Made by a program: the position numbers and the translations under genes. Shown here one piece after another: positions 3,896 to 37,425 of a stretch of DNA of 37,425 nt. The stretch is taken from the IMG/VR virus record IMGVR_UViG_2565956616_000008; one strand, given 5' to 3'. This DNA is from a virus (taxonomy: Duplodnaviria > Heunggongvirae > Uroviricota > Caudoviricetes). Within the stretch, counting starts at the first letter, position 1. Each line of letters starts with the position of its first letter. The notes under the pieces were generated by a model, which was not told the DNA's origin, searched no databases, and saw nothing but the letters and a program-made list of their open reading frames with translations.

Positions 3896-4306
3896 ATGCA
3901 CGCAAAAGAAGAAGGTATCATCAGAGCACTGAAAGAAATTTCAAAGACAGAAAACGAAGTAGCGAAAAAAGCCATAGCAAATAATCATATGGACGTCGCA
4001 ACCCACACACTGATAGTCGCAAGAGTCACGGCAGAAGCAGCCGAAATTATCGCAAAACAGGATGCTGAACTGGCGGTTCTCAGAACACAACCAGTCACCG
4101 GACTGGATTTGTCTAACACCGGACGCCTTATTTACACAATTGGCTCGGAGCTACAGCGATACACCATTATCGCCGGGTTACAGGATAAATACCTGATCAC
4201 TCCTCACCCCATAAGGGAATCAGAAATTCTGACAAATCTCCGCCTGATAGAGCGCTCTCAAGTCGCATTCATTGATGACGCACAGTGCACCGTATTTAAC
4301 GCATAG
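3896..4306 (+). CDS. hypothetical early-region protein
   Basis: 136-aa ORF; GGAG 9 nt upstream of ATG. Confidence 0.55.
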   Translation: MHAKEEGIIRALKEISKTENEVAKKAIANNHMDVATHTLIVARVTAEAAEIIAKQDAELAVLRTQPVTGLDLSNTGRLIYTIGSELQRYTIIAGLQDKYLITPHPIRESEILTNLRLIERSQVAFIDDAQCTVFNA

Positions 4307-4329
4307 AGTTACTGGACAAAGGGGGCGCA

Positions 4330-4533
4330 ATGGCAATTAAGCATTTTCCCGTCGTTCGCTTTACCTCCAGAGGGCGCGAATACGAGGTCGACGAACGCCT
4401 GATTACCACTATCGACAAACATCGTTCGGAAAAGGATGCACACCACATCTACCTCACTGACGGCACTTACTTCTGCGCCACTAATGTGGCGCGGGTAAAC
4501 CTTATCCGACAGGTACAGGAGCCACGCAGATGA
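4330..4533 (+). CDS. hypothetical protein
   Basis: 67-aa ORF; AAAGGGGG upstream; stop overlaps next start. Confidence 0.5.
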   Translation: MAIKHFPVVRFTSRGREYEVDERLITTIDKHRSEKDAHHIYLTDGTYFCATNVARVNLIRQVQEPRR

Positions 4534-4796
4534 CCATTCTGGACTACATCGCTACTCATCCGGGGTGTAGCGGCGGAGAGATCGCCGCAGCACTGAATAC
4601 TCCAACCACAGCCATTAATGCTGAGTTACGCCAACTTTGGCGCGGCGGCTTAGTCATCAGAACAAACCGCAGCACAGGTGGTCGCGCTCGCAAAACTGGA
4701 GGCCAGGCTTCTTACCACGTAAACCCGATGCCGTTCGGGTGTAGCAATCCACTTACTCACATGTTTAACCAGCTACTGAAGGAAGCCAGAACATGA
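4530..4796 (+). CDS. hypothetical protein, possible winged-helix DNA-binding fold
   Basis: 88-aa ORF, translationally coupled (ATGA overlaps at both ends). Confidence 0.5.
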   Translation: MTILDYIATHPGCSGGEIAAALNTPTTAINAELRQLWRGGLVIRTNRSTGGRARKTGGQASYHVNPMPFGCSNPLTHMFNQLLKEART

Positions 4797-5092
4797 GCAC
4801 CATCAACCACCAGAAGCTACGCGAACTGGCATTTGCCCTGCAACGAATGGCAACACCTCAAAAATTACTGGCATTTCGCGCAATGCTCTCGCCGTCTGCT
4901 GTGCTGGCACTGCTGGATGAGCTGGAGCACGCCAGAACCATGGCTCCAGCCATTCGCCTGACGCTCCATCATGAAATCGCTGATTTCTGCGCACCACTGG
5001 GTTCGCCTGGTGAACCAGAAACGCCGGAAACAATGCAACGAGAGCTACTGCAACGCATCGACAAGGTTTTTGATTTTTTCCTTAACCAGTAA
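4793..5092 (+). CDS. hypothetical protein
   Basis: 99-aa ORF, coupled to the upstream gene. Confidence 0.5.
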   Translation: MSTINHQKLRELAFALQRMATPQKLLAFRAMLSPSAVLALLDELEHARTMAPAIRLTLHHEIADFCAPLGSPGEPETPETMQRELLQRIDKVFDFFLNQ

Positions 5093-7181: not shown

Positions 7182-10004
7182 ATGACGACAGAGTACATCA
7201 GGGACTGGCAACAACCGCGCCACGCAGTAGGGCGTGAAGGAACGGGGATCCCCGCTCCTGAATCCGTGCTTTCCTCCTGGCTGGATGCCTACCGGGCAGA
7301 GAACGAGCGCCGCCAGAAAATGGCTGATGCGGCGTTCTCCGCCACGCCGCTGGGCAACCTGATTAATAAAAGCCTGGACGCACAGGAAAAACAGGACAAA
7401 ACCATCGCACTGGCAGGAGACGCCAGAAAACAGGCACGCGGCGCGGTGGATGAAGCCATGGCCTCGCTGCGCCTGCTGCCGTCCTATCTGCGCGATCCGC
7501 TTATTCGCCACCTCTCCTTCCTGCGCAAAAAACAGGAAGCCGATCGCCGGAAAGGCAAAAAGAGCTGGCAGGCGGAACGCTATGCACGCGGAACCCTGCG
7601 CAAAATATTCGAACGTCTGGAGCGCACCGATCACCGCTGGCTGACACAGGGTTATCGCTCCCTTGCCGGACGCGAACGCCTGGACGATTTGCTTTACCTG
7701 CCGCAGCTCAACAAACACCAGATACAGACGCTGGCCACCATGACGGCGGCGATGTTCAGCAGCACCTTCGAAAAACTCTGCGATGGCTTTGGCGCGACCG
7801 ATGGCGAACTGACCATGGATGTAACGCTGAAGGCGTATCAGATGCTGGCCCGCATGGCGTTACACCTGCACATCATGCCTCCACATTATGACGCACTGAC
7901 AACAGATAAAGACCGGAGGAACGAACCGGACACGGAGCTGCTGCCGGGCGCAATCCTTCGCCTGACCTGTGCGGAATGGTGGAAACGCAAACTGTGGCTG
8001 TTACGTTGCGAGTGGAGAGAAGAACAACTCCGCGCCGCCTGTCTGGTTTCCAGAAAAACATCACCCTATCTGAGCCAGGACGCGTTAAGCGAGTTTCGCG
8101 CACAGAGCGAGAAAACACGCGATTTCCTGAAAAGTTTCATGCTGGAAAACGAAGACGGGTTCACGATTGATCTCGAGACAGTGTATTACGCGGGAGTAAG
8201 TAACCCGGTTCACCGTAAGGCAGAAATGATGGCCACCATGAAGGGGCTGGAACTTCTGGCCGAAGCCCGTGGCGACAAAGCGGTGTTTCTGACTGTCACC
8301 TGCCCGTCAAAATACCACGCCACAACAGAGAACGGTCATCCGAATCCCAAATGGAACGGGGCCACCATGCGCGACTCCAGCGATTACCTGGTTAACACGT
8401 TTTTTGCAGCGGTCCGCAAGAAACTGAACCGCGACGGCCTGCGCTGGTATGGCATCCGCACGGTGGAGCCTCACCATGACGGCACCGTGCACTGGCATAT
8501 GATGGTCTTTGCTCATCCGGAAGAAATCGACACCATTGTGTCCCACACCCGCGATATTGCCATTCAGGAAGATCGTCACGAGCTGGGTGATGATATTACC
8601 CCACGCTTTAAGGCGGAGTTCGTCGACGGCTCAAAAGGCACGCCAACCAGCTACATCGCCACCTACATCGGAAAGAACCTGGACAGCCGCGCCGTGGATG
8701 GCATCGACCCGAAAACGGGCAAGCCACGCGTTGACCACGAAACAGATAAATCAATGGCCGAGAGCGTGGAGCGCGCCATCGGCTGGGCGCGCCTTCACCG
8801 GGTCCGCCAGTTCCAGTTCTTTGGCATCCCCTCCCGTCAGGTGTGGCGTGAACTCCGCCGCCTTGCCAGCCAGATGGCACGCAACCCGGAAGGCCCGCAA
8901 CGGCTGAAGGATGACGCAATGGATGCGGTTCTTGCTGCCGCTGATGCCGGGTGTTTTGCCACCTACATTGAAAAACAGGGTGGCGTACTTGTTCCGCGCA
9001 AGGACTACCTGATTCGCACAGCCTACGACCTCGCAGATGAGCTTAACGATTACGGCGAACAGAGTGTACAGATTTACGGGATCTGGTCGCCATTCATCGG
9101 GGAATCCTCCCGTGTGTGCACGCATCCGGATAACTGGAAGCTGGTAAGACGTAAACCGGAAGCGGAGGACAGCACCCGCGAAAATGGTTTTGACCTTCAG
9201 GGCGGCCCTGCCGCCCCTTGGACTCGTGGCAATAACTGTCCCCGTGTACAGGAAACGGACAACAACGGGACAGAACAGCCGGAAGAACGGCCAGCACCGT
9301 GGCCGCAGCTCCCTGACGGCGTTGAAGTGAACGAATGGATGCGCTCACTGAAACGGCACGAACGCCGGGCGCTGATGCGTTCGCTTCGTGACAAACAGGC
9401 AAAAAACAGCAGTGATGAAATGCAGAGCTGGACACAGAGCCGCAAACAGCAGCGGCCTTTGCCTGATAACCACGAATTACTCGCTAAAGAATGGCGGGAG
9501 TCTGCTGAATCTCTCGGCCTGCATATTGGTGAACAGCAGATGCAGCACCTGTTACGGGGCGGCAGTCTGTACGTTGACGGCAGCATCATTGCACCGCAGG
9601 GATTTGAAATTGTACGCAAACCGGATACCCGTCCGGACAGCCGGATCACGCAGCTCTGGCAGCGCCTGAGCCGTAACCACGGCGTAAGCAGCACGGAGAT
9701 CCGCCATAACCCGGTCGCCAGCTATCTGGAACAGCTGGGGGCATCAGACCCCGAAGCCGCCGCACGCCTGGCATCCACACTTCAGCAGGACCAGAACACC
9801 ATGAAAACACCCGTTACCGTGCTTTCTGACATGCTGCGCGCCATCCGCGACGCAGAGCACGCACAGAGAATCAGTGAAACCACTGAACGCGCCCGCCGCA
9901 AAGCAGACCTGCTGCGGGGTGGCCTGACCAGTGGAAACAAAAAACAGACAGAAACGGGATTCACAAATCCCGTAAATGAGCAAAAAACGCGCCGCGATAT
10001 ATGA
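7182..10004 (+). CDS. A: Replication initiator (P2 gpA family rolling-circle endonuclease) with a C-terminal extension
   Basis: 940 aa; position after the early genes and overall similarity to the P2 A family as recalled (region around YIATYIGKNLD); longer than P2 A, which I recall as about 760 aa. Confidence 0.85.
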   Translation: MTTEYIRDWQQPRHAVGREGTGIPAPESVLSSWLDAYRAENERRQKMADAAFSATPLGNLINKSLDAQEKQDKTIALAGDARKQARGAVDEAMASLRLLPSYLRDPLIRHLSFLRKKQEADRRKGKKSWQAERYARGTLRKIFERLERTDHRWLTQGYRSLAGRERLDDLLYLPQLNKHQIQTLATMTAAMFSSTFEKLCDGFGATDGELTMDVTLKAYQMLARMALHLHIMPPHYDALTTDKDRRNEPDTELLPGAILRLTCAEWWKRKLWLLRCEWREEQLRAACLVSRKTSPYLSQDALSEFRAQSEKTRDFLKSFMLENEDGFTIDLETVYYAGVSNPVHRKAEMMATMKGLELLAEARGDKAVFLTVTCPSKYHATTENGHPNPKWNGATMRDSSDYLVNTFFAAVRKKLNRDGLRWYGIRTVEPHHDGTVHWHMMVFAHPEEIDTIVSHTRDIAIQEDRHELGDDITPRFKAEFVDGSKGTPTSYIATYIGKNLDSRAVDGIDPKTGKPRVDHETDKSMAESVERAIGWARLHRVRQFQFFGIPSRQVWRELRRLASQMARNPEGPQRLKDDAMDAVLAAADAGCFATYIEKQGGVLVPRKDYLIRTAYDLADELNDYGEQSVQIYGIWSPFIGESSRVCTHPDNWKLVRRKPEAEDSTRENGFDLQGGPAAPWTRGNNCPRVQETDNNGTEQPEERPAPWPQLPDGVEVNEWMRSLKRHERRALMRSLRDKQAKNSSDEMQSWTQSRKQQRPLPDNHELLAKEWRESAESLGLHIGEQQMQHLLRGGSLYVDGSIIAPQGFEIVRKPDTRPDSRITQLWQRLSRNHGVSSTEIRHNPVASYLEQLGASDPEAAARLASTLQQDQNTMKTPVTVLSDMLRAIRDAEHAQRISETTERARRKADLLRGGLTSGNKKQTETGFTNPVNEQKTRRDI

Positions 10005-10045
10005 AGCGCGCATAAAACAGGCAAAAACGGGATTTCAGAATCCCG
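9954..10045. repeat. Two copies of a 20-bp palindrome (ACGGGATT-N4-AATCCCGT) 72 bp apart
   Basis: 9954..9973 ACGGGATTcacaAATCCCGT and 10026..10045 ACGGGATTtcagAATCCCGT, each flanked by AAACGGG...CCCGTAAA; first copy lies inside the 3' end of gene A, second just upstream of the parM-like gene. Confidence 0.5.
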
Positions 10046-10080
10046 TAAACGATTAATTAATCAACATAAGGAAAAGCGAC

Positions 10081-10909
10081 ATGAAAATTTGTATCGATGA
10101 CGGCTCCACCAACATCAAGCTGGCATGGACTGAGAACGGCCCAGACGACCGACACGCAATACCAGTACAGCGATGTGAATGTCATTGCCATTCATCACGC
10201 GCTGGTCAAATCAGGCATCACGCCACAGGAGGTGGATGTGGTTGTCACCCTGCCACTGAGCGAGTATTTCGACACAAACGCACAGCCGGACATGACCAAC
10301 ATCAACCGCAAAAAAGCGAACGTTATGCGCCCGGTGGAGTACCAGAACGGCGAAGCATTCACTATCCGTAACGTACGGGTTATGCCTGAATCCATTCCGG
10401 CTGGCTTTAAGGCACTGGCTGACATGAGTCCGTTTGAATCCCTGCTGATTGTGGATTTGGGCGGAACCACGCTGGATGTGGCAAAGGTTCAGGGGCAACT
10501 GGCAGGTATCAGCTAGGTGTTTTGCGATCCACACGTAGGCGTTTCTCTGATGGCCGATGCCGTACTGTCGGTGATGGCCACTAACGGTATGCGCACCAGT
10601 CACCACATCGCCAATACCATTATCGAACATCGCCATGATGAAGCCTGGCTGCGCCAGCACATCCACAATGACGCGCATTACGCCAGCCTGATGGCGGTTA
10701 TTCGTGAAAAGGAAGAAACACTGAAACAACGCGTGATCCGCGCGCTGGCGGGTTTTTCGGGTTACGGGCGGGTGATGGTTGTCGGTGGAGGGGCGGAGAT
10801 TGTGGCACCCGCTATCCGCGAAGCCTGCGGAGTTAATGCGACTTTCATCGCGGACGGGGTGCCACAGTTTGCTCTGGTTAATGGGCTGTACGCAATGGAC
10901 AAGGAGTAA
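10081..10909 (+). pseudogene. ParM/StbA-like actin-type partition ATPase, disrupted by a frameshift and an in-frame TAG
   Basis: N-terminus MKICIDDGSTNIKL in frame 1 (10081..); body with LIVDLGGTTLDV in frame 2 (10097..10516); in-frame TAG at 10514..10516; C-terminus with VMVVGGGAEI continues in the same frame to 10909. Confidence 0.7.
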
Positions 10910-10913
10910 ACCA

Positions 10914-11225
10914 ATGACGACACCAACCAGACGGATAAGTTTCTATCTGAAGCCTGCGGCCGTCAAGAACGAAAGCGAAGCATGCGCCTGGCTGGACAGC
11001 CTTACACCAGAAGCCCGCAAAAGCGGCCAACGCGTGGCTTTTCTGGCCGGGCTGGCACTTCTGAAAATGAATCCGGCAGAGGCTTACCGACTGGCTGCAT
11101 GGGCTGACGATGAGGCGTTATCAGTGACACAAACCAGGACAGAATGCCCCGCGTCACAGCCAGTATCAACCGCACAGATAACCAGTCAGATGGCCGGAAA
11201 TATCCGGGCGTTATTTCCCGAATAA
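10914..11225 (+). CDS. ParR/StbB-like small partition protein (tentative)
   Basis: 103 aa; AAGGAG 7 nt before ATG; pattern RRISFYLKP...LDSL...AFLAGLALLK...LFPE resembles plasmid StbB as recalled; sits directly after the parM-like gene as in parMR loci. Confidence 0.5.
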   Translation: MTTPTRRISFYLKPAAVKNESEACAWLDSLTPEARKSGQRVAFLAGLALLKMNPAEAYRLAAWADDEALSVTQTRTECPASQPVSTAQITSQMAGNIRALFPE

Positions 11226-11288
11226 CACAACATCAGGGCGCATCCGCCCTGATGACTTTAATCCGGGAACATAAACAAGGGGGACACA

Positions 11289-11624
11289 ATGCAACACATT
11301 GACAGAGAAAAAGCGCAGCGACTGATTGAGCGAATGGAAGCGCTGGCGAAAGAAGAAAATGTCAACATCCAAAAAATAGCTGAATGTGGCCAGATAGTTC
11401 TTCGTCGTGAAAAAGACATCAAGCAACTGATGTCTGGCGGAATCAGCAAAACATGGACTTCAGGCAAGAAGACGATTTATTGCAGCTTCTGCAATAAATC
11501 CCAGCACGAAGTCATAAAGGTGATTGCCGGACCGTCTGTTTACATCTGCAATGAGTGCGTGGATTTGTGCAATGAAATTATCAGAAGAGAAGTGACAGAC
11601 CATGAAGAAAAAACGCATGAATGA
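11289..11624 (+). CDS. Small protein with a C-terminal ClpX-type zinc-binding domain (orphan ClpX N-domain)
   Basis: 111 aa; residues [38 protein letters not shown] closely match the ClpX N-terminal C4 zinc-finger dimerisation domain as recalled; no AAA+ module follows; AAGGGGG upstream. Confidence 0.75.
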
Positions 11625-11686
11625 CGAATTTGACGGCTTTTAATTTTATCGGGGCGCACTGTCTCCCCCCGCACGAGGAAAACACG

Positions 11687-12211
11687 ATGAAAAAATACGA
11701 ATACATGCTAATGAAAGAAGCACTGCGGGCTGGTCTGGCTCCCTGTCCTGTATCCGTAGAAGCTGTTGTTGGGAACACGATTTTCCGAACGCTGCGAAAT
11801 CGCGTATCCGTGAAGATGATTCACCAACCACCCAAATCTACCAGCATGATCTATCTGCCGCTGCCCGAGGCTATCAAACTTATGCGTTCGCTGAAATTTG
11901 CGATTTGGATGCAGACACAACTCAACAAAGCGGTGCAAAACACCTTCGTTAAGAAACTGATGCCGGAGCTTGCTGCCAGATGTGCAAAATGTACCAGACC
12001 CGCACTTCAATTTGATCTGTCATTGATTCAACAAGCTACGGAGGCAGAACTGTACCGCCTGTCACCTCTCCATGATGTTCACACGGAAGCCTCAGAAATG
12101 TTCCGGCTCATGTTTCAATTTAATTTTGCCGTTCGACGCACACGCGTTCAGGTCAATCGCATGATGCAGGCGCAGGAAGAGCTGACGCAACACAAAGGAG
12201 GCAACCAGTGA
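11687..12211 (+). CDS. hypothetical protein
   Basis: 174-aa ORF from ATG 11687 (GAGGA 8 nt upstream); track ORF starts earlier at 11621. Confidence 0.5.
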   Translation: MKKYEYMLMKEALRAGLAPCPVSVEAVVGNTIFRTLRNRVSVKMIHQPPKSTSMIYLPLPEAIKLMRSLKFAIWMQTQLNKAVQNTFVKKLMPELAARCAKCTRPALQFDLSLIQQATEAELYRLSPLHDVHTEASEMFRLMFQFNFAVRRTRVQVNRMMQAQEELTQHKGGNQ

Positions 12212-12732
12212 GCAAGATTGACTATCAGGCATTACGCGAACGCTATTCACCTGCGCCAGTACCGAAATGCCCTATTTGCGGCGAGGAAATGTCAATTCAG
12301 CGAATATCTGGAGCACAGGTTGTTTATGCCTGCTCCGGTTATGGTGATGATGGAGATTTCAAAATTGGTCGAACTCTTGCCGACGAACATTATGAAAAAT
12401 CGCGCGTAACAGTGTTGGATGTCGGGGATCCTGAAGTATTGGCGCTACTTGATTGGCTGGAAACTAAAGACAACCGAATCGCTGAACTGGAAAAAATCGC
12501 CACTGACTATGCACTTAAATTCCAGAAAGCACAGGACGCATTAAAGCATGCCGCTTTGCTGCATAGCCGGACGGCGCAACAAACAAATAATTTTGCAGTA
12601 TCGCTTCCGGACATAAGCGAATATTTCATTAATGACGTATTTCAGCCCTTGCGATACGAGCGGGATGTTGAAAGAGCCATCATAAAGGCTGGCGGAAAAG
12701 CATTGTGGCAGGAGAAACACGACGACAGATAA
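12208..12732 (+). CDS. hypothetical protein with N-terminal Cys pairs (possible zinc ribbon) and coiled coil
   Basis: 174 aa; GTG start overlapping the previous stop, AAAGGAGG upstream; CPICGEEM...YACSG at the N-terminus. Confidence 0.55.
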   Translation: MSKIDYQALRERYSPAPVPKCPICGEEMSIQRISGAQVVYACSGYGDDGDFKIGRTLADEHYEKSRVTVLDVGDPEVLALLDWLETKDNRIAELEKIATDYALKFQKAQDALKHAALLHSRTAQQTNNFAVSLPDISEYFINDVFQPLRYERDVERAIIKAGGKALWQEKHDDR

Positions 12733-12784
12733 AAATAACACCTGATCTCCCTCAAACCAGGGCGATAATCGCGCATCGCCCTGC

Positions 12785-12811
12785 TGCACAATAGTGCACA
12801 AATTTGCACAA
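12785..12811. repeat. Three direct TGCACAA repeats at 10-bp spacing
   Basis: TGCACAA at 12785, 12795 and 12805, followed by a T-run. Confidence 0.45.
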
Positions 12812-13185
12812 TTTTTTTGAACGACTTTTTGCCCTTCCGGCCCGCGTGGCGGCTGGATCCGTCAAGGATCCGTGCGTGCACAAAAAAACGCGCTTTTTCT
12901 GCGCGCAGGTGACGGGGGAACAGCCCGCGTTTCAGGGGGTAAATAGCGTTCCCTTAACGATGTCGCAGCGACACGACAGAATGGCCGTATTTCTCACGCT
13001 GAGCGTGAAAAATACGTGAGGGATTCTGATTTGATGGGGTGAAAGGTAAGGCCGTCAAAATCGCACTGAGGCGGCGAGAACATGCAGTCAACGCGGTGGG
13101 ATTGCGTAAGAGTCTGACCGTCGATGGTGGCGATAAACTGGAAGGCGTCGTGAAATTATCTGACTGATACAGGAGCTGGAGAGTC

Positions 13186-13208
13186 GGGGCATAAATTTTT
13201 TATGCCCC
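13186..13208. other. Perfect 23-bp palindrome GGGGCATAAATTTTTTATGCCCC just beyond the portal gene stop
   Basis: 10-bp arms with a 3-nt centre; no flanking T-run on either strand, so not a classical terminator. Confidence 0.4.
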
Positions 13209-13235
13209 GGCGAAGCAGCAGACAAGCGAAGCGCG

Positions 13236-14282
13236 TCAGGATGTGGGCTGGATGTCTAACAGTGCGTAAGGGTTAAAGCGGATCACCTCTTCGCCAAGCC
13301 AGTCATTGATGTGCTTCATGGCCTCCATGACGGGCATCAGCTCGTTAATTGCGTAAACCCGCGCGGCCTTCTCCACATCACCAAACGCACTTTTTTCACC
13401 CGGCATCGCCCCCATCAGTTGCGGCGGAACGCGGTGCGCAGCCAGCACATCATCACGGGATGCCGCCTTAACATTCATGAACTCATCCTTTGCGGTGATC
13501 TGCTGGAACGGCAAAATTTGCACCCCCTCTTTGCCCCCGTTGGGCGCATGAATGAGCACGTTTTTAAACGCACCACCACCACGCGCACCCTGTAGCGTTT
13601 CTTTCAGGGAGTCCATGCTTTCGCGGTTTACCTGCGCTGCACCGATGTAGATGATGCACCCGGCGTGGGATCCGTTGTCGTAATACAGTTTTCTGAACAT
13701 GTCCGCCGAATGAGACAGGCTGGCCGAGAGTAATGCGCCGAGATATTCCGGCATGCCGTAGATTTCCTGGTTAATGTCAGGATTCATCAGGTGACACACT
13801 TTGCCTGGGCGAAACTGAAACGCATCCTTGCCATCCTGCACATACCACCATGATTCAAGATCGCTTCCGCGTCGCATGTATTTCGCCAGGGCGTGCCGTA
13901 ATTTAAGCGGTTCGCCGAGCATATTGCTTCGAAGCTCAAGGAATGCGTTACCGAACACAAACCAGTCCAGCGCCAGCGCCGAGAAATCCTGCCGGGAAAG
14001 CAGCGGGTGCGGAATATAGCAGCCGAGCAATACATTGCGCTTAAAGTAAAGCGCAGACTGATGCCAGGACGTTTGCCGGGCAGCTCTTGCCAGACCGTAC
14101 CAGTCTACCGGGGTTTCATACCACCGCCCGTTATCAGCACAGTACATATTGTCCAGCAGGTCATGCCCGGTCAGGCGATAAGGACCATCAAATGTGAATG
14201 CACTGAGCGATGATTCTTTCCTGAGCGCATCAGCGAGATCAATGCGTGAACTCATGCGCACTTTTTTATTTTTTCTGCTCAT
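13236..14282 (-). CDS. Q: Portal (capsid vertex) protein
   Basis: 348 aa; similar to the P2 gpQ portal family as recalled; start overlaps the terminase stop. Confidence 0.9.
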   Translation of the reverse strand: MSRKNKKVRMSSRIDLADALRKESSLSAFTFDGPYRLTGHDLLDNMYCADNGRWYETPVDWYGLARAARQTSWHQSALYFKRNVLLGCYIPHPLLSRQDFSALALDWFVFGNAFLELRSNMLGEPLKLRHALAKYMRRGSDLESWWYVQDGKDAFQFRPGKVCHLMNPDINQEIYGMPEYLGALLSASLSHSADMFRKLYYDNGSHAGCIIYIGAAQVNRESMDSLKETLQGARGGGAFKNVLIHAPNGGKEGVQILPFQQITAKDEFMNVKAASRDDVLAAHRVPPQLMGAMPGEKSAFGDVEKAARVYAINELMPVMEAMKHINDWLGEEVIRFNPYALLDIQPTS

Positions 14283-32962: not shown

Positions 32963-33119
32963 AGCTTCAGCCCCTTGTATCCGTTAAATGATTCGGCAAC
33001 AATCATCACCCACCACGCGCGTAATCTCACCCCTGCGCCGTTCTCCCGACCCGGCGACAACAAAAAGCAGTAACCCCCTCCGCACACACATGCGACCATG
33101 CCGCACAGGGAGGGAGCAG

Positions 33120-34229
33120 ATGACCGACACCACCATGCAATTGCTCAGCCAGGGCACAGACCCCGTAAAAATGCCGGATTTTGATATTCTCGCGGAGGGT
33201 AAAACGCTGTCCGGCGTGGCAGAGCGCCTGATGAGCCTGTCGCTGACCGACAACCGGGGATTTGAGGCAGACCAGCTCACCATCACGCTGGATGATGCGG
33301 ATGGTCAGTTGCAGCTACCGCCACGGGGCGCGCGCCTGACGGTTCTCATTGGCTGGAAAGGCGAACCGCTGACAGAAAAAGGGTCTTACATTGTTGATGA
33401 AATCGCTCACGAAGGACCGCCGGACAGGCTGACTGTTTCAGCCAGAAGCGCAGATTTTCGGGATGAATTTAACGTTAAACGTGAGGTGTCCTGGCATGAT
33501 GTGACCGTTGAGCGCGTGGTATCCGCCATCGCTCATCGGTACGGTCTGAAACCGCAAATCAGCGAAATGCTGATGGATATCGAAATCGACCACGCCGACC
33601 AGACCGAAGAAAGCGACATGTCCTTTCTTACGCGCATGGCGGAAATGCTGGGCGCAATCACCACGGTAAAAAGCGGTAATCTGTTATTCATTATGCCAGG
33701 CGGTGGCGTGAACGCACAGGGCCAGCCGTTGCCCTCGTTCGCCATTACACGCAGCAGCGGCGATCGCCATCAGTTCCGTATTGCTGACCGCGAGGCGTAT
33801 ACGGGGGTACGCGCCTACTGGCTTGATCTTAATTACGGGAAAAAGAAAAAAGTCAGCGTGAAACGCCGTAAACCGCCAAAACCCAAAAAGGAGAAAAGCA
33901 GCAGCCGTGAAGGTGATTATATGGAAGGCGCGGAAGGCAATGTGTTTGTGTTACGCAAGACTTATCAGAACGAGCAGGCAGCAAGACGCGCAGCGGCGGC
34001 AAAGTGGCAGCAGCTACAACGCGGAGCCGCATCATTCTCCATCACGCTGGCGCGTGGACGTGCAGAACTCTACCCTGAAATGCATGGCACGGTGACAGGC
34101 TTTAAAAGTGACATCGACAATCAGGACTGGATTATTGCAAAAGCCGAGCACACCATTGATAACAGCGGCTTTACCACGCAGCTTGAGCTTGAAGCAAAAA
34201 TCCCAGAATGGATAGCAGAAACAGAGTAA
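33120..34229 (+). CDS. D: Late control / tail protein D
   Basis: P2 gpD family features (MQLLSQ...LSLTDNRG.EADQL.I.LDD.DG); ATG at 33120 preceded by GGGAGGGAG (track ORF starts further upstream). Confidence 0.85.
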   Translation: MTDTTMQLLSQGTDPVKMPDFDILAEGKTLSGVAERLMSLSLTDNRGFEADQLTITLDDADGQLQLPPRGARLTVLIGWKGEPLTEKGSYIVDEIAHEGPPDRLTVSARSADFRDEFNVKREVSWHDVTVERVVSAIAHRYGLKPQISEMLMDIEIDHADQTEESDMSFLTRMAEMLGAITTVKSGNLLFIMPGGGVNAQGQPLPSFAITRSSGDRHQFRIADREAYTGVRAYWLDLNYGKKKKVSVKRRKPPKPKKEKSSSREGDYMEGAEGNVFVLRKTYQNEQAARRAAAAKWQQLQRGAASFSITLARGRAELYPEMHGTVTGFKSDIDNQDWIIAKAEHTIDNSGFTTQLELEAKIPEWIAETE

Positions 34230-34423
34230 ACAACTTAGATGCATTAGCCCTGACATTTGCTAACGCGCCTACAGCAAGAATCATAATCAATCTGACAGCC
34301 TACCCGGTGTCAAAATCAGAAGTACCTTACATTAGAATATGTTAATTTGTAGCAAACAAATTTACACACAAATAATTACTGCTGAAATAGCGCCCCATAA
34401 ATGCCATGTCAGAGGACCATGTT

Positions 34424-35089
34424 ATGAATATGCAAATTTTTATTGGACCAACAGCCACAGTTGCCGCGGTCTGCCTTGCTGCATATTTTGCTTTACGAAA
34501 TGAGCGTAAAAAGAAAGCGCTTGAGATTAGAACAACTCAACTAGATCGAATATCTGAGCTAGTAAGCAGAGCATCTACCAATTTGATGCAATATACAGGT
34601 ACTCTTGCCTCTATACTGGAAGCGCACACCAAAGAAAATTATCTACCAGACCACAAATTTAACATTAATGAAATTAGCAAATGGAAAAATGATCTCGATA
34701 AGAGAGAAGATTGGGCTATTGATATACAGCAACTAAGAACATGCCAGCACAACCTGGAGTTTCATCGTGAAAAAGAATGGGCTGAATGGGAAAAAATAAT
34801 TCCACCATTACTTGATAAAATTAACCAATTTTTTCTCATATCCAAGCCGGGGCAACCTGTTACGCTTATAAATGGTCAAAATAAAACAGTCGATGAACTG
34901 ATTGCTTTCTCAATATACTTACAACAACAAACAGAAGAAATTAAAGCGGTACGTAAGCTGCTACTTTCTCAAATGAGAGAAGAATTCATCGAGTTAACTA
35001 GCTTTGAACCTGTCACAATATTTAGCTTATTAAAATCAATAAAGAAAAGTGTCCTGCAATTTTTCTGTATCAGTGCTCTTAAAAATTGA
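34424..35089 (+). CDS. AT-rich cargo gene: membrane-anchored hypothetical protein
   Basis: 221 aa from ATG 34424 (AGAGGA 7 nt upstream); N-terminal TM helix (IFIGPTATVAAVCLAAYFAL) then a charged helical domain; AT-rich relative to flanking phage DNA; own terminator downstream. Confidence 0.55.
   Translation: MNMQIFIGPTATVAAVCLAAYFALRNERKKKALEIRTTQLDRISELVSRASTNLMQYTGTLASILEAHTKENYLPDHKFNINEISKWKNDLDKREDWAIDIQQLRTCQHNLEFHREKEWAEWEKIIPPLLDKINQFFLISKPGQPVTLINGQNKTVDELIAFSIYLQQQTEEIKAVRKLLLSQMREEFIELTSFEPVTIFSLLKSIKKSVLQFFCISALKN

Positions 35090-36132: not shown

Positions 36133-37425
<1,293 letters not shown>

What the first reader, a model, noticed from the sequence alone, without database searches (positions are those of the whole stretch)
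11687..12732. Two coupled hypothetical genes in the A-to-portal variable region
Two overlapping-stop genes with no recognisable catalytic motifs occupy the position where P2 carries tin and old; here they are on the opposite strand from those genes as I recall them. The second has N-terminal Cys pairs (CPICGEEM...YACSG) suggesting a zinc ribbon, followed by a coiled coil. With the upstream ClpX-domain gene they could form a three-gene cassette. Unannotatable cargo at a known defence hotspot is a candidate for a new defence or anti-defence function.
Basis: inference. Interest (0 to 1): 0.5.

Follow-up and report, generated by a model that had tools for sequence, protein, structure and literature searches.

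The report
Orphan gene plus Ea22-like early gene
The two genes are real, but they are separate swappable accessory genes at the end of a P2-like prophage's early operon: one belongs to the known phage Ead/Ea22 family and the other is a rare orphan, and nothing shows that they form a defence system.

Summary
The window is a P88-like (Xuanwuvirus, P2 family) E. coli prophage. Both genes exist as described. orfX is 11687-12211 and its TGA overlaps the GTG of the second gene (12208-12732) by 4 nt. The second gene is annotatable: it matches Ead/Ea22 (PF13935, E=1e-32). It has an N-terminal Cys3-His zinc module, a predicted coiled coil and a small mobile C-terminal module. In lambda and Stx phages Ea22 is an early, tetrameric, pro-lysogenic protein whose mechanism is unknown.

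orfX is a genuine gene (dN/dS 0.2-0.4), basic and helical. It matches no family or fold and was found only in P2-like prophages. About 70 N-terminal residues resemble the partner protein of YafO-family toxins (hhalign 90%).

The coupling is not specific. Among 34 orfX loci, 22 have an intact Ea22-like gene downstream, 7 have truncated or remnant copies and 5 have other genes. Phage P884B11 carries the Ea22-like gene without orfX. The ClpX-zinc-finger gene is present in only 16 of 34 loci.

There are no PADLOC hits and no sigma-70-like promoter. Both genes lie on the same strand as gene A, unlike P2 tin and old. They are most likely independent early-operon accessory genes. A 25-nt leader upstream of orfX is invariant and unexplained. 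Rousset et al. 2022 already catalogued the arrangement but did not test it.

The parts
11618..11654 (+). Invariant non-coding leader block TGAATGACGAATTTGACGGCTTTTAATTTTATCGGGG. The 25-mer TTGACGGCTTTTAATTTTATCGGGG lies at 11630-11654. It marks the left boundary of the orfX cassette.
   Evidence: The 25-mer has exact matches in 32 of the 47 session loci (some are repeat fetches of one place), all upstream of an orfX copy. It also has exact matches in 26 IMG/VR stretches. This holds even where orfX is only 45-55% identical (dS 1.2-2.3). In the four contigs where no orfX had been found, it sits upstream of an orfX remnant. It is not coding, gives no sigma-70 match, shows no significant RNA fold and has no Rfam hit.
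11651..11680 (+). Imperfect GC hairpin (GGGGCG-CACTGT-CTCCCC), a poly-C tract at 11665-11670, then the Shine-Dalgarno sequence GAGGAA at 11675-11680.
   Evidence: Sequence. Across loci the stem varies on one side only, and the C tract is 6, 7 or 9 C long.
11687..12211 (+). orfX: a 174-aa basic (pI 10.0) helical orphan protein, identical to RefSeq WP_022631071.1.
   Evidence: No hit in Pfam, PHROGs, PADLOC, NCBIfam or PDB. The family is tiny: 8 clusters at 90% identity and 3 representatives among 1.84 billion proteins. dN/dS is 0.19-0.44. The AF2 model has pLDDT 72.5 and pTM 0.74, and fold searches gave only generic coiled-coil matches. Residues 2-75 align with the N-terminus of the YafO-partner family (hhalign 89.7%, E 1.9e-6; controls 0.1-0.4%).
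12193..12240 (+). Conserved junction: the AAGGAGG ribosome-binding site, the GTG start and the first 11 codons (MSKIDYQALRE) of the Ea22-like gene. It behaves as a module linker.
   Evidence: This 48-nt stretch is 93.8% identical in lambdoid phages such as ST104 and the P13374 group, which are otherwise unrelated to the query; most of the 180 matching records are Stx-converting phages. Other upstream genes end in the same junction, for example ...KEGNQ* in L018.
12208..12732 (+). Ead/Ea22-like protein, 174 aa, acidic (pI 5.3), identical to WP_022631072.1. It has an N-terminal Cys3-His zinc module (residues ~9-80, nt 12232-12447), a coiled coil (residues 75-123, nt 12430-12576) and a C-terminal module FAVSLPD..YFINDVFQPLRYERDVERAIIKAGG (residues ~124-174, nt 12577-12729).
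   Evidence: PF13935 at E=1e-32 and phrog_368. A homologue alignment shows a mosaic of independently swapped N-terminal, coil and C-terminal modules. AF2 gives the secondary structure. C21, C24, C42 and H61 are invariant. The C-terminal module also occurs as the end of a 96-aa protein in the nin region of P22-like phages and on another Ea22. No structural match was found.
12794..12819 (+). Terminator-like hairpin GTGCACAAATTTGCAC followed by AATTTTTTTG. It is the probable end of the early-operon transcript.
   Evidence: Scan. It is conserved in P88.
11289..11624 (+). Neighbouring ClpX zinc-finger-only protein (111 aa). It is an independent cassette and not part of the pair.
   Evidence: PF06689 at E=1.5e-17 and phrog_6797. 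It lies upstream of orfX in 16 of 34 loci, is absent in L002-type loci, and is present without orfX in phage P88.

Best explanation
The two genes are independent, horizontally shuffled accessory cassettes at the distal end of the early (cox to A) operon of a P88-like P2-family prophage. They are probably transcribed from the early promoter after infection or induction, not from the lysogen (inferred).

Gene 2 is an Ead/Ea22-family protein: a coiled-coil stalk carrying an N-terminal Cys3-His zinc module and a small exchangeable C-terminal module. By homology with lambda and Phi24B Ea22 it most likely forms an oligomer (a tetramer in lambda) that binds an unidentified host or phage ligand through its head modules. 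That would slow lytic development and favour host survival and lysogeny (inferred from family phenotypes; not shown for this subtype).

Gene 1 (orfX) is a rare, basic, all-helical orphan. Its N-terminal ~70 residues form a helix-strand-loop-strand-helix unit shared with the upstream partner of YafO-family toxins found at the same hotspot. It most likely acts on its own, as a small binding or regulatory protein, possibly on nucleic acid and possibly on its own invariant leader (weak inference).

The 4-nt overlap reflects a conserved junction at the 5' end of Ea22-type genes that serves as a recombination linker. It is not evidence for a dedicated two-protein machine.
For: - Ea22 membership: PF13935 at 114 bits. 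The N-terminal signature MSxI(D/N)YQALRE is shared with lambda Ea22, and there is a long predicted helix. The modules are mosaic, matching the published description of Ea22 as N-region plus coiled coil plus variable C-terminal domain, tetrameric and pro-lysogenic (PMC10834534; PMC7093339).
- Independence of the genes. Of 34 orfX loci, 22 have an intact Ea22-like gene, 7 have truncated, split or remnant copies and 5 have a different gene overlapping the orfX stop. The same Ea22 subtype directly follows stbB in phage P884B11.
- The junction is shared with lambdoid phages.
- Early-operon context. Every ORF from cox (1508) to 12732 is on the + strand. No sigma-70-like site lies in 9900-13300, against 3.1 expected by chance. 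A terminator-like hairpin follows gene 2. P2 tin and old, which are expressed in the lysogen, are on the opposite strand with their own promoter.
- orfX is a real gene. It is basic and an orphan.
- The N-domain link to the YafO partner family: with negative controls. That family always sits upstream of a YafO toxin gene.
Against: - No expression data exist, and the promoter scan covers only sigma-70 consensus sites.
- This Ea22 subtype shares only the first ~11 residues and the family profile with lambda Ea22. Its C-terminal domain is unrelated to the solved lambda domain, so carrying the pro-lysogenic phenotype over to it is uncertain.
- An intact Ea22-like gene follows orfX in about two thirds of loci, and one product is basic while the other is acidic. 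A facultative interaction is therefore not excluded.
- Many of the 34 loci are near-identical, so the counts are not independent events.
- The invariant leader is not explained by this model.
Confidence: 0.55

Rival explanations
1. Counter-defence. One or both proteins are early-expressed inhibitors of host or prophage immunity. The Ea22 scaffold would display exchangeable inhibitor heads. orfX, which carries the N-domain of the YafO partner (a presumed antitoxin), would act as an antitoxin-like decoy that neutralises YafO-type toxins or another abortive-infection effector.
For: - The genes are small, fast-shuffling and in an early-operon position in a hypervariable region.
- A 2026 preprint reports that the anti-OLD protein Oad2 (related to P22 EaE) is fused to Ead/Ea22 proteins in some phages and lies in the same kind of accessory locus.
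- In ES18 an eaE-like gene lies two genes upstream of the eaD/Ea22 homologue that carries the same zinc module.
- orfX shows N-domain homology to the YafO partner family.
Against: - There is no similarity to any characterised anti-defence protein.
- The C-terminal module here is not EaE/Oad2-like as far as tested; its only matches are to uncharacterised proteins.
- orfX co-resides with an intact partner-plus-YafO cassette in L012, L017 and L027, which does not suggest antagonism.
- The published Ea22 phenotypes are developmental, not anti-defence.
Confidence: 0.2
2. orfX is an autoregulatory DNA- or RNA-binding protein. Its target would be the invariant 25-37-nt leader immediately upstream, and it would control expression of whatever cassette lies downstream of it.
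For: - The leader is 100% conserved and has been found only with orfX, including orfX remnants, while the coding sequence diverges to dS above 1.
- orfX has pI 10.0 and a strongly basic C-terminal helix, FAVRRTRVQVNRMMQ.
- Its N-domain is shared with a presumed antitoxin family, and antitoxins typically autoregulate.
Against: - No recognisable DNA-binding fold was found.
- The 25-mer contains no repeat or dyad.
- No promoter was detected there for it to regulate.
- The conservation could equally reflect a recombination boundary.
Confidence: 0.12
3. This is the first reader's proposal: a new two- or three-gene anti-phage defence system, expressed from the prophage, at the P2 tin/old hotspot.
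For: - The location is a validated defence hotspot (PMC9122126).
- A later survey reports that some genes of unknown function at these hotspots are antiviral: 15-32% of the P2 unknowns were predicted to be so (PMC13586616).
- GC content (47-50%) is slightly below that of the core genes.
Against: - No PADLOC hit for any of the three proteins.
- No own promoter detected, and the genes are co-directional with A.
- There are no enzymatic or effector domains.
- The components are not co-inherited.
- Gene 2 belongs to a family of early lytic-cycle genes of lambdoid phages.
- The same paper notes that this hotspot also carries non-defence cargo such as partition systems.
Confidence: 0.08
4. A toxin-antitoxin-like addiction pair (basic orfX plus acidic Ea22-like protein) that stabilises the prophage or plasmid form alongside the ParM/StbB partition system.
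For: - The architecture looks like a toxin-antitoxin pair: two small overlapping genes with opposite charge.
- It lies next to a partition locus.
- orfX shares its N-domain with the partner of a bona fide toxin family.
Against: - Each gene occurs intact without the other.
- Ea22 genes are widespread in lambdoid phages, and deleting ea22 in lambda and Phi24B gave viable phages with altered development.
- parM is a pseudogene in this window while both genes remain intact.
Confidence: 0.05

Closest known systems
Lambda Ea22 and Stx-phage (Phi24B, 933W) Ea22; P22 and ES18 EaD (Pfam PF13935 Ead_Ea22)
   Same: It matches the family HMM and has the N-terminal signature MSxI(D/N)YQALRE. It has the three-part layout of short N region, long coiled coil and variable C-terminal domain, with mosaic module swapping. 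It is an accessory gene in an early operon. The zinc module is 74% identical to that of the ES18 eaD homologue.
   Different: It sits in a P2-family phage downstream of gene A and the partition genes, not in the exo-xis region of a lambdoid phage. Its C-terminal module is unrelated to the solved lambda domain. Oligomeric state and phenotype are untested.
P2 tin and old (and other validated systems of the P2 A-to-Q defence hotspot, Rousset et al. 2022)
   Same: The genomic position between A and Q next to cos is the same, as is the hypervariable cargo. The exact protein pair WP_022631071 + WP_022631072 is listed in that paper's Table S5A.
   Different: The strand is opposite and no own promoter was detected. 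There are no ATPase, nuclease or other effector domains and no PADLOC match. The paper did not report testing it.
The 197-aa partner of YafO-family toxins at P2-like and HP1-like prophage edges (Rousset Table S5B, system 123, 'YafO_toxin')
   Same: The N-terminal ~70 residues of orfX align with it at the invariant positions KK..M..AL...LAP.P and YLP(L/I).EA..M..L (hhalign 89.7%). It occupies the same hotspot and sometimes the same locus.
   Different: The remaining ~100 residues are unrelated. orfX has no YafO toxin gene after it. The partner family is itself uncharacterised.
Module boundary or linker sequences of mosaic temperate phages
   Same: There are short, highly conserved stretches at cassette borders: the 48-nt Ea22 5' junction shared with lambdoid phages, and the invariant orfX leader. 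Different genes are exchanged on either side of them.
   Different: The orfX leader stays exact over much greater coding divergence than a passive linker would be expected to show, so it may have an additional cis-acting role.

Membership tests
Ead/Ea22 (PF13935) | Profile HMM match above the curated threshold | tested here: met
   114 bits against a cut-off of 27, E=1e-32, covering residues 2-140. Also phrog_368 at E=7.6e-31.
Ead/Ea22 (PF13935) | Conserved N-terminal signature and central coiled coil, with variable N- and C-terminal modules | tested here: met
   MSKIDYQALRE compared with lambda (V/M)SEINSQALRE. AF2 predicts a helix at 75-123. The alignment is mosaic.
Ead/Ea22 (PF13935) | Lambda-type C-terminal domain fold (solved by NMR) | tested here: not met
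   There is no sequence match to any PDB chain (best E=0.88, to an unrelated enzyme), no BLASTP similarity beyond residue ~11, and no Foldseek hit at E<=0.001. Published work shows that C-terminal domains differ among family members, so this does not exclude membership.
Ead/Ea22 (PF13935) | Tetrameric assembly; pro-lysogenic phenotype (longer latent period, smaller burst, more lysogens) | not testable with these tools
   Known only from experiments on lambda and Phi24B (PMC7093339, PMC10834534).
Ead/Ea22 (PF13935) | Location in the pL-driven exo-xis or ea region of lambdoid and P22-like phages | tested here: not met
   Here it is the last gene after A-parM-stbB in a Peduoviridae prophage. This is context rather than a defining feature.
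Classical zinc ribbon (two CxxC knuckles) | Four Cys in two CxxC/CxxH knuckles | tested here: not met
   There are only C21-x2-C24, C42 and H61. All four are invariant out to a Gordonia phage homologue. This is a probable Cys3-His site; metal binding is untested.
Known anti-phage defence systems (PADLOC-DB 2.0) | HMM match of any component | tested here: not met
   No family matched at E<=1 for ClpX-zf, orfX (both candidate starts) or the Ea22-like protein.
Prophage-expressed lysogenic-conversion or defence cassette (tin/old type) | Own promoter, with transcription independent of the early lytic operon | tested here: inconclusive
   There are no sigma-70-like sites in 9900-13300 (3.1 expected) and the genes are on the same strand as A. 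P2 old-tin has mapped transcript starts on the opposite strand. A consensus scan cannot exclude a weak or non-canonical promoter.
Obligate two-gene system (toxin-antitoxin or sensor-effector pair) | Components co-inherited; neither found intact without the other | tested here: not met
   orfX is intact next to Ea22 remnants (L006, L012, L017, L027) or next to DUF7446 plus a Zn-ribbon gene (L029-31). The Ea22 subtype occurs without orfX in phage P884B11.
Three-gene cassette with the ClpX-zf gene | ClpX-zf always adjacent | tested here: not met
   Adjacent in 16 of 34 loci. In 16 loci stbB directly precedes orfX, in one an SSB gene does, and in one another ORF does. P88 has ClpX-zf followed by a different gene.
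YafO-partner (presumed antitoxin) family | Full-length homology and an adjacent YafO-family toxin gene | tested here: not met
   Only the N-terminal 60 columns align. The gene after orfX is Ea22-like, not YafO. orfX shares a domain with this family but is not a member.

The most novel reading that the evidence does not exclude
orfX is the founding member of an uncharacterised family of small phage proteins built on the N-terminal domain of the YafO-toxin partner. Together with its invariant 25-nt leader it would form a self-contained regulatory or counter-defence cassette. For example, it could be an antitoxin-mimic that disarms YafO-type abortive-infection modules carried by rival P2-like prophages. 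It might act together with the Ea22-like scaffold that follows it in about two thirds of loci.
Probability: 0.12. Interest if true: 0.6.

Novelty: new member of a known kind. Interest (0 to 1): 0.3.

Why it matters
The result mainly clears up an annotation. The 'unannotatable' cargo is half known: one gene is an Ea22-family gene, which shows that this lambdoid early-gene family, and the junction sequence at its 5' end, also circulate in P2-family phages. It is also a caution that not everything in the P2 A-to-Q hotspot is a defence system.

Three items remain of modest interest. orfX is a very narrowly distributed orphan. Its 25-nt leader is exactly conserved. It shares a domain with the partner of a YafO toxin. 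If orfX proved to be a regulator or an antitoxin mimic, it would add a small piece to the biology of phage-phage conflict.

Tried and rejected
- Family searches for orfX in Pfam, PHROGs, NCBIfam and PADLOC found nothing.
- PDB sequence searches found nothing for either protein.
- An exhaustive HMMER search of 1.84 billion representatives found only 3 orfX relatives, so no deeper profile could be built.
- tblastn of orfX against 50,697 phage records found no match. A scan of GTDB species-representative genomes found none.
- The 196-aa reading from the ATG at 11621 was rejected because the frame is not conserved.
- An RNA element in the leader was rejected as unsupported: fold z-score +1.36 and no Rfam hit.
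- A sigma-70 promoter in the leader was rejected: TTGACG has no -10 element at 16-18 nt, and the scan found none.
- orfX-Ea22 homology was rejected (hhalign 0.1%).
- I looked for the pair among the tested systems of Rousset 2022. The proteins are listed in Table S5A only. No supplements are held for the 2026 NAR paper.
Full report
**Context**

The window is a P2-family prophage of the P88 type (Xuanwuvirus, Peduoviridae). It is integrated next to serS, which lies at 36133-37425 on the - strand.

The region 10000-13235 is about 97% identical to parts of phage P88 and its relatives. The stretch 11289-12732 is 99.7-99.9% identical to six complete E. coli chromosomes, for example ETEC4090.

The + strand genes run in this order:
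- cox (1508-2029), followed by several small ORFs
- an SPFH-domain protein and an Ash-like protein
- gene A (7182-10004, PF05840)
- parM/stbA and stbB (10914-11225)
- a ClpX zinc-finger-only protein (11289-11624)
- orfX (11687-12211)
- an Ead/Ea22-like gene (12208-12732)

After that come a terminator-like hairpin (12794-12819) and, on the - strand, portal gene Q and terminase gene P.

This is the A-to-Q variable region that Rousset et al. 2022 described as a defence hotspot. About a quarter of P2-like phages carry a partition system there (PMC9122126).

**Checking the observation**

Both ORFs are present at the stated coordinates. The orfX TGA (12209-12211) overlaps the GTG start (12208-12210) of the next gene, and AAGGAGG lies 7 nt upstream.

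P2 tin and old are on the strand opposite to A and have their own mapped transcript starts.

The start of orfX is the ATG at 11687, preceded by GAGGAA. The longer 196-aa reading from 11621 is not conserved: the spacing between the two ATGs is 63-69 nt in different loci and falls in all three frames.

orfX is under purifying selection, with pairwise dN/dS of 0.19-0.44 for homologues down to 45% identity. It is a real gene.

**Gene 2**

It matches Pfam PF13935 (Ead_Ea22) at 114 bits (cut-off 27), and phrog_368. RefSeq names it accordingly. An alignment of 26 homologues shows a mosaic in which three parts are exchanged independently:
- an N-terminal module, of at least three alternative types
- a central segment, RIAELEKIATDYALKFQKAQDALK
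- a C-terminal module

AF2 (pLDDT 67) predicts short strands in residues 19-41, a helix at 51-65, a long helix at 75-123 and a small alpha/beta unit at 130-167.

The protein has only three cysteines (C21, C24, C42). These three and H61 are invariant across homologues in ES18 and E. coli prophages and in a standalone 86-aa Gordonia phage protein (phage D6 and ST64B also carry the module). The N module is therefore an autonomous domain with a probable Cys3-His zinc site, not a four-Cys ribbon.

The C-terminal motif YFI..VFQPLRYERD.ERAI..AG recurs in two other places. It forms the C-terminus of a 96-aa protein in the nin region of P22-like phages (SE1 gp32), and it sits on an otherwise different 'Ea22' of phage PhiR46_1. 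It has no Pfam family.

Neither the sequence nor the model matches any solved structure, including the lambda Ea22 C-terminal domain.

Published work on lambda and Phi24B describes Ea22 as follows (PMC7093339; PMC10834534):
- it is transcribed very early from pL
- it is tetrameric, with a dimeric C-terminal domain
- its C-terminal domain varies among phages
- deleting it shortens the latent period, raises the burst size and lowers host survival and lysogenisation
- its mechanism is unknown, and two-hybrid surveys found no partners

**Gene 1 (orfX)**

orfX has 174 residues and pI 10.0. It has no hit in Pfam, PHROGs, NCBIfam, PADLOC or PDB.

The family is tiny:
- 8 clusters at 90% identity
- 3 representatives at 50% identity among 1.84 billion proteins
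- 30 of 5426 complete E. coli genomes, all chromosomal
- 24 IMG/VR loci
- none in 50,697 phage records and none in GTDB species representatives

AF2 (pLDDT 72.5, pTM 0.74) gives helix 2-14, strand 17-21, a low-confidence segment at 26-51, strand 54-58, and then long helices at 59-85, 105-128 and 133-171. Part of the low-confidence segment (about 15 residues) is deleted in some homologues. The two strands carry the invariant LAPCP and YLPLP motifs. Fold searches returned only generic helical hairpins.

One lead emerged. Residues 2-75 align with the N-terminus of a 197-aa family at the positions that are invariant in orfX (hhalign probability 89.7%, E=1.9e-6). Control comparisons gave 0.1-0.4%. 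That family lies immediately upstream of a YafO-family toxin gene in the E. coli, Buttiauxella and Serratia loci and the P2-like contig checked; one Logan copy of the Serratia locus (L041) has no gene called in that interval. It is listed as system 123 in Rousset's Table S5B.

**Are the genes a system?**

I classified 34 orfX-bearing loci: the window, 9 genome or metagenome loci and 24 IMG/VR loci.

| Gene downstream of orfX | Loci |
|---|---|
| Intact Ea22-like gene starting at the orfX stop | 22 |
| Ea22-like gene truncated, split or a 5' remnant | 7 |
| A different gene overlapping the orfX stop | 5 |

In three of the seven remnant loci (L012, L017, L027) a YafO cassette follows the remnant. 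The five 'different gene' loci are DUF7446 plus a small Zn-ribbon protein in L029-31 and L036, and an unrelated 161-aa ORF placed before an intact Ea22-like gene in L018.

| Gene upstream of orfX | Loci |
|---|---|
| ClpX-zf | 16 |
| stbB directly | 16 |
| SSB gene | 1 |
| Another ORF | 1 |

In the other direction, phage P884B11 carries the same Ea22 subtype directly after stbB, with neither ClpX-zf nor orfX. P88 carries ClpX-zf followed by a different gene.

The partner Ea22 proteins also differ in their N modules.

The junction AAGGAGGCAACCAGTGAGC..., which encodes ...KGGNQ* and then VS/MS.I.YQALRE, is 94% identical over 48 nt in lambdoid phages, most of them Stx-converting. It also terminates the unrelated ORF in L018 (...KEGNQ*). 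The overlap is therefore a property of the Ea22 cassette border. Many of these loci are close relatives, so the counts are descriptive only.

**Defence or not**

The evidence against the defence reading:
- No PADLOC model matches any of the three proteins.
- No sigma-70-like promoter is found anywhere between the end of A and Q.
- GC content is only slightly lowered (47-50%).
- The genes continue the early operon.
- Gene 2 belongs to a family of early lytic-cycle genes.

These points favour accessory early genes over lysogen-expressed exclusion genes.

An anti-defence role cannot be excluded. A 2026 preprint notes that the anti-OLD protein Oad2 (EaE-like) is fused to Ead/Ea22 proteins in some phages. 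In ES18 an eaE-like gene lies two genes upstream of the eaD homologue that carries the same zinc module.

A toxin-antitoxin reading is contradicted by each gene occurring intact without the other.

**Unexplained**

The 37-nt block at 11618-11654, and in particular the 25-mer TTGACGGCTTTTAATTTTATCGGGG, is identical upstream of every orfX copy or remnant examined. It gave exact matches in 32 session loci and 26 IMG/VR stretches. This holds even where synonymous divergence in orfX exceeds 1.

It is not coding, not a sigma-70 promoter, not a significant RNA fold and not in Rfam. It could be a cis-acting site, perhaps for orfX itself, or the recombination boundary of the cassette.

**Verdict**

Gene 2 is a new member, in a P2-family setting, of the known Ead/Ea22 kind. 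Gene 1 is a narrowly distributed orphan with one weak domain-level lead.

The arrangement, including the exact protein accessions, already appears in Rousset et al.'s Table S5A, though that paper did not report testing it. Interest is modest (0.3).

Noticed in passing
window 10081-10909: The parM/stbA partition ATPase is a pseudogene here. Compared with the intact 960-bp gene of ETEC4090, it has a 131-bp deletion at about 10141 that shifts the frame, and a CAG-to-TAG nonsense change at 10514. stbB (10914-11225) is intact.
   Followed up: yes
window 11618-11654 (25-mer at 11630-11654); poly-C tract at 11665-11670: A leader block is exactly conserved upstream of every orfX homologue or remnant, despite coding divergence down to 45% identity. 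The adjacent C tract is 6, 7 or 9 C long in otherwise near-identical loci. Its function is unknown.
   Followed up: partly
window 9954-9973 and 10027-10046: Two copies of the inverted repeat ACGGGATT-N4-AATCCCGT flank the end of gene A, just upstream of parM. They could be a centromere (parC) or operator for the StbB/ParM system, or bidirectional hairpins.
   Followed up: no
window 11289-11624: A standalone 111-aa protein consists of a helical N-terminus plus a ClpX-type C4 zinc finger (PF06689, phrog_6797). It is also present in phage P88. It could mimic the ClpX N-domain and compete for adaptors or substrates. It is an independent cassette.
   Followed up: partly
L012 3198-4181; L017 4698-5681; L040, L042, L043 at 4001-4991: A 197-aa protein is conserved immediately upstream of a YafO-family toxin gene at the edges of P2-like and HP1-like prophages in E. 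coli, Serratia and Buttiauxella. It is a presumed non-canonical antitoxin. Its N-terminal ~70 residues are homologous to orfX.
   Followed up: partly
window 12193-12240: A 48-nt stretch covering the ribosome-binding site and the first 11 codons of the Ea22-like gene is 93.8% identical in lambdoid phages such as ST104 and the P13374 group. Most of the 180 matching phage records are Stx-converting. This shared module junction crosses phage families.
   Followed up: partly
window 12577-12732; L038 2303-2593: The C-terminal motif YFI..VFQPLRYERD.ERAI..AG of the Ea22-like protein also ends a 96-aa nin-region protein of P22-like phages (SE1 gp32). It has no Pfam family. The copy in this window stops 22 codons earlier than the commoner 196-aa form.
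   Followed up: partly
window 34406-35089: A low-GC (36%) 227-aa ORF with a hydrophobic N-terminal segment lies between tail gene D (32988-34229) and the host serS gene. It has no Pfam or PADLOC hit. It looks like a more typical moron or lysogenic-conversion candidate than the finding itself.
   Followed up: partly
L036 2567-4357: In one IMG/VR prophage, orfX is split by an insertion carrying two transposase-like ORFs.
   Followed up: no
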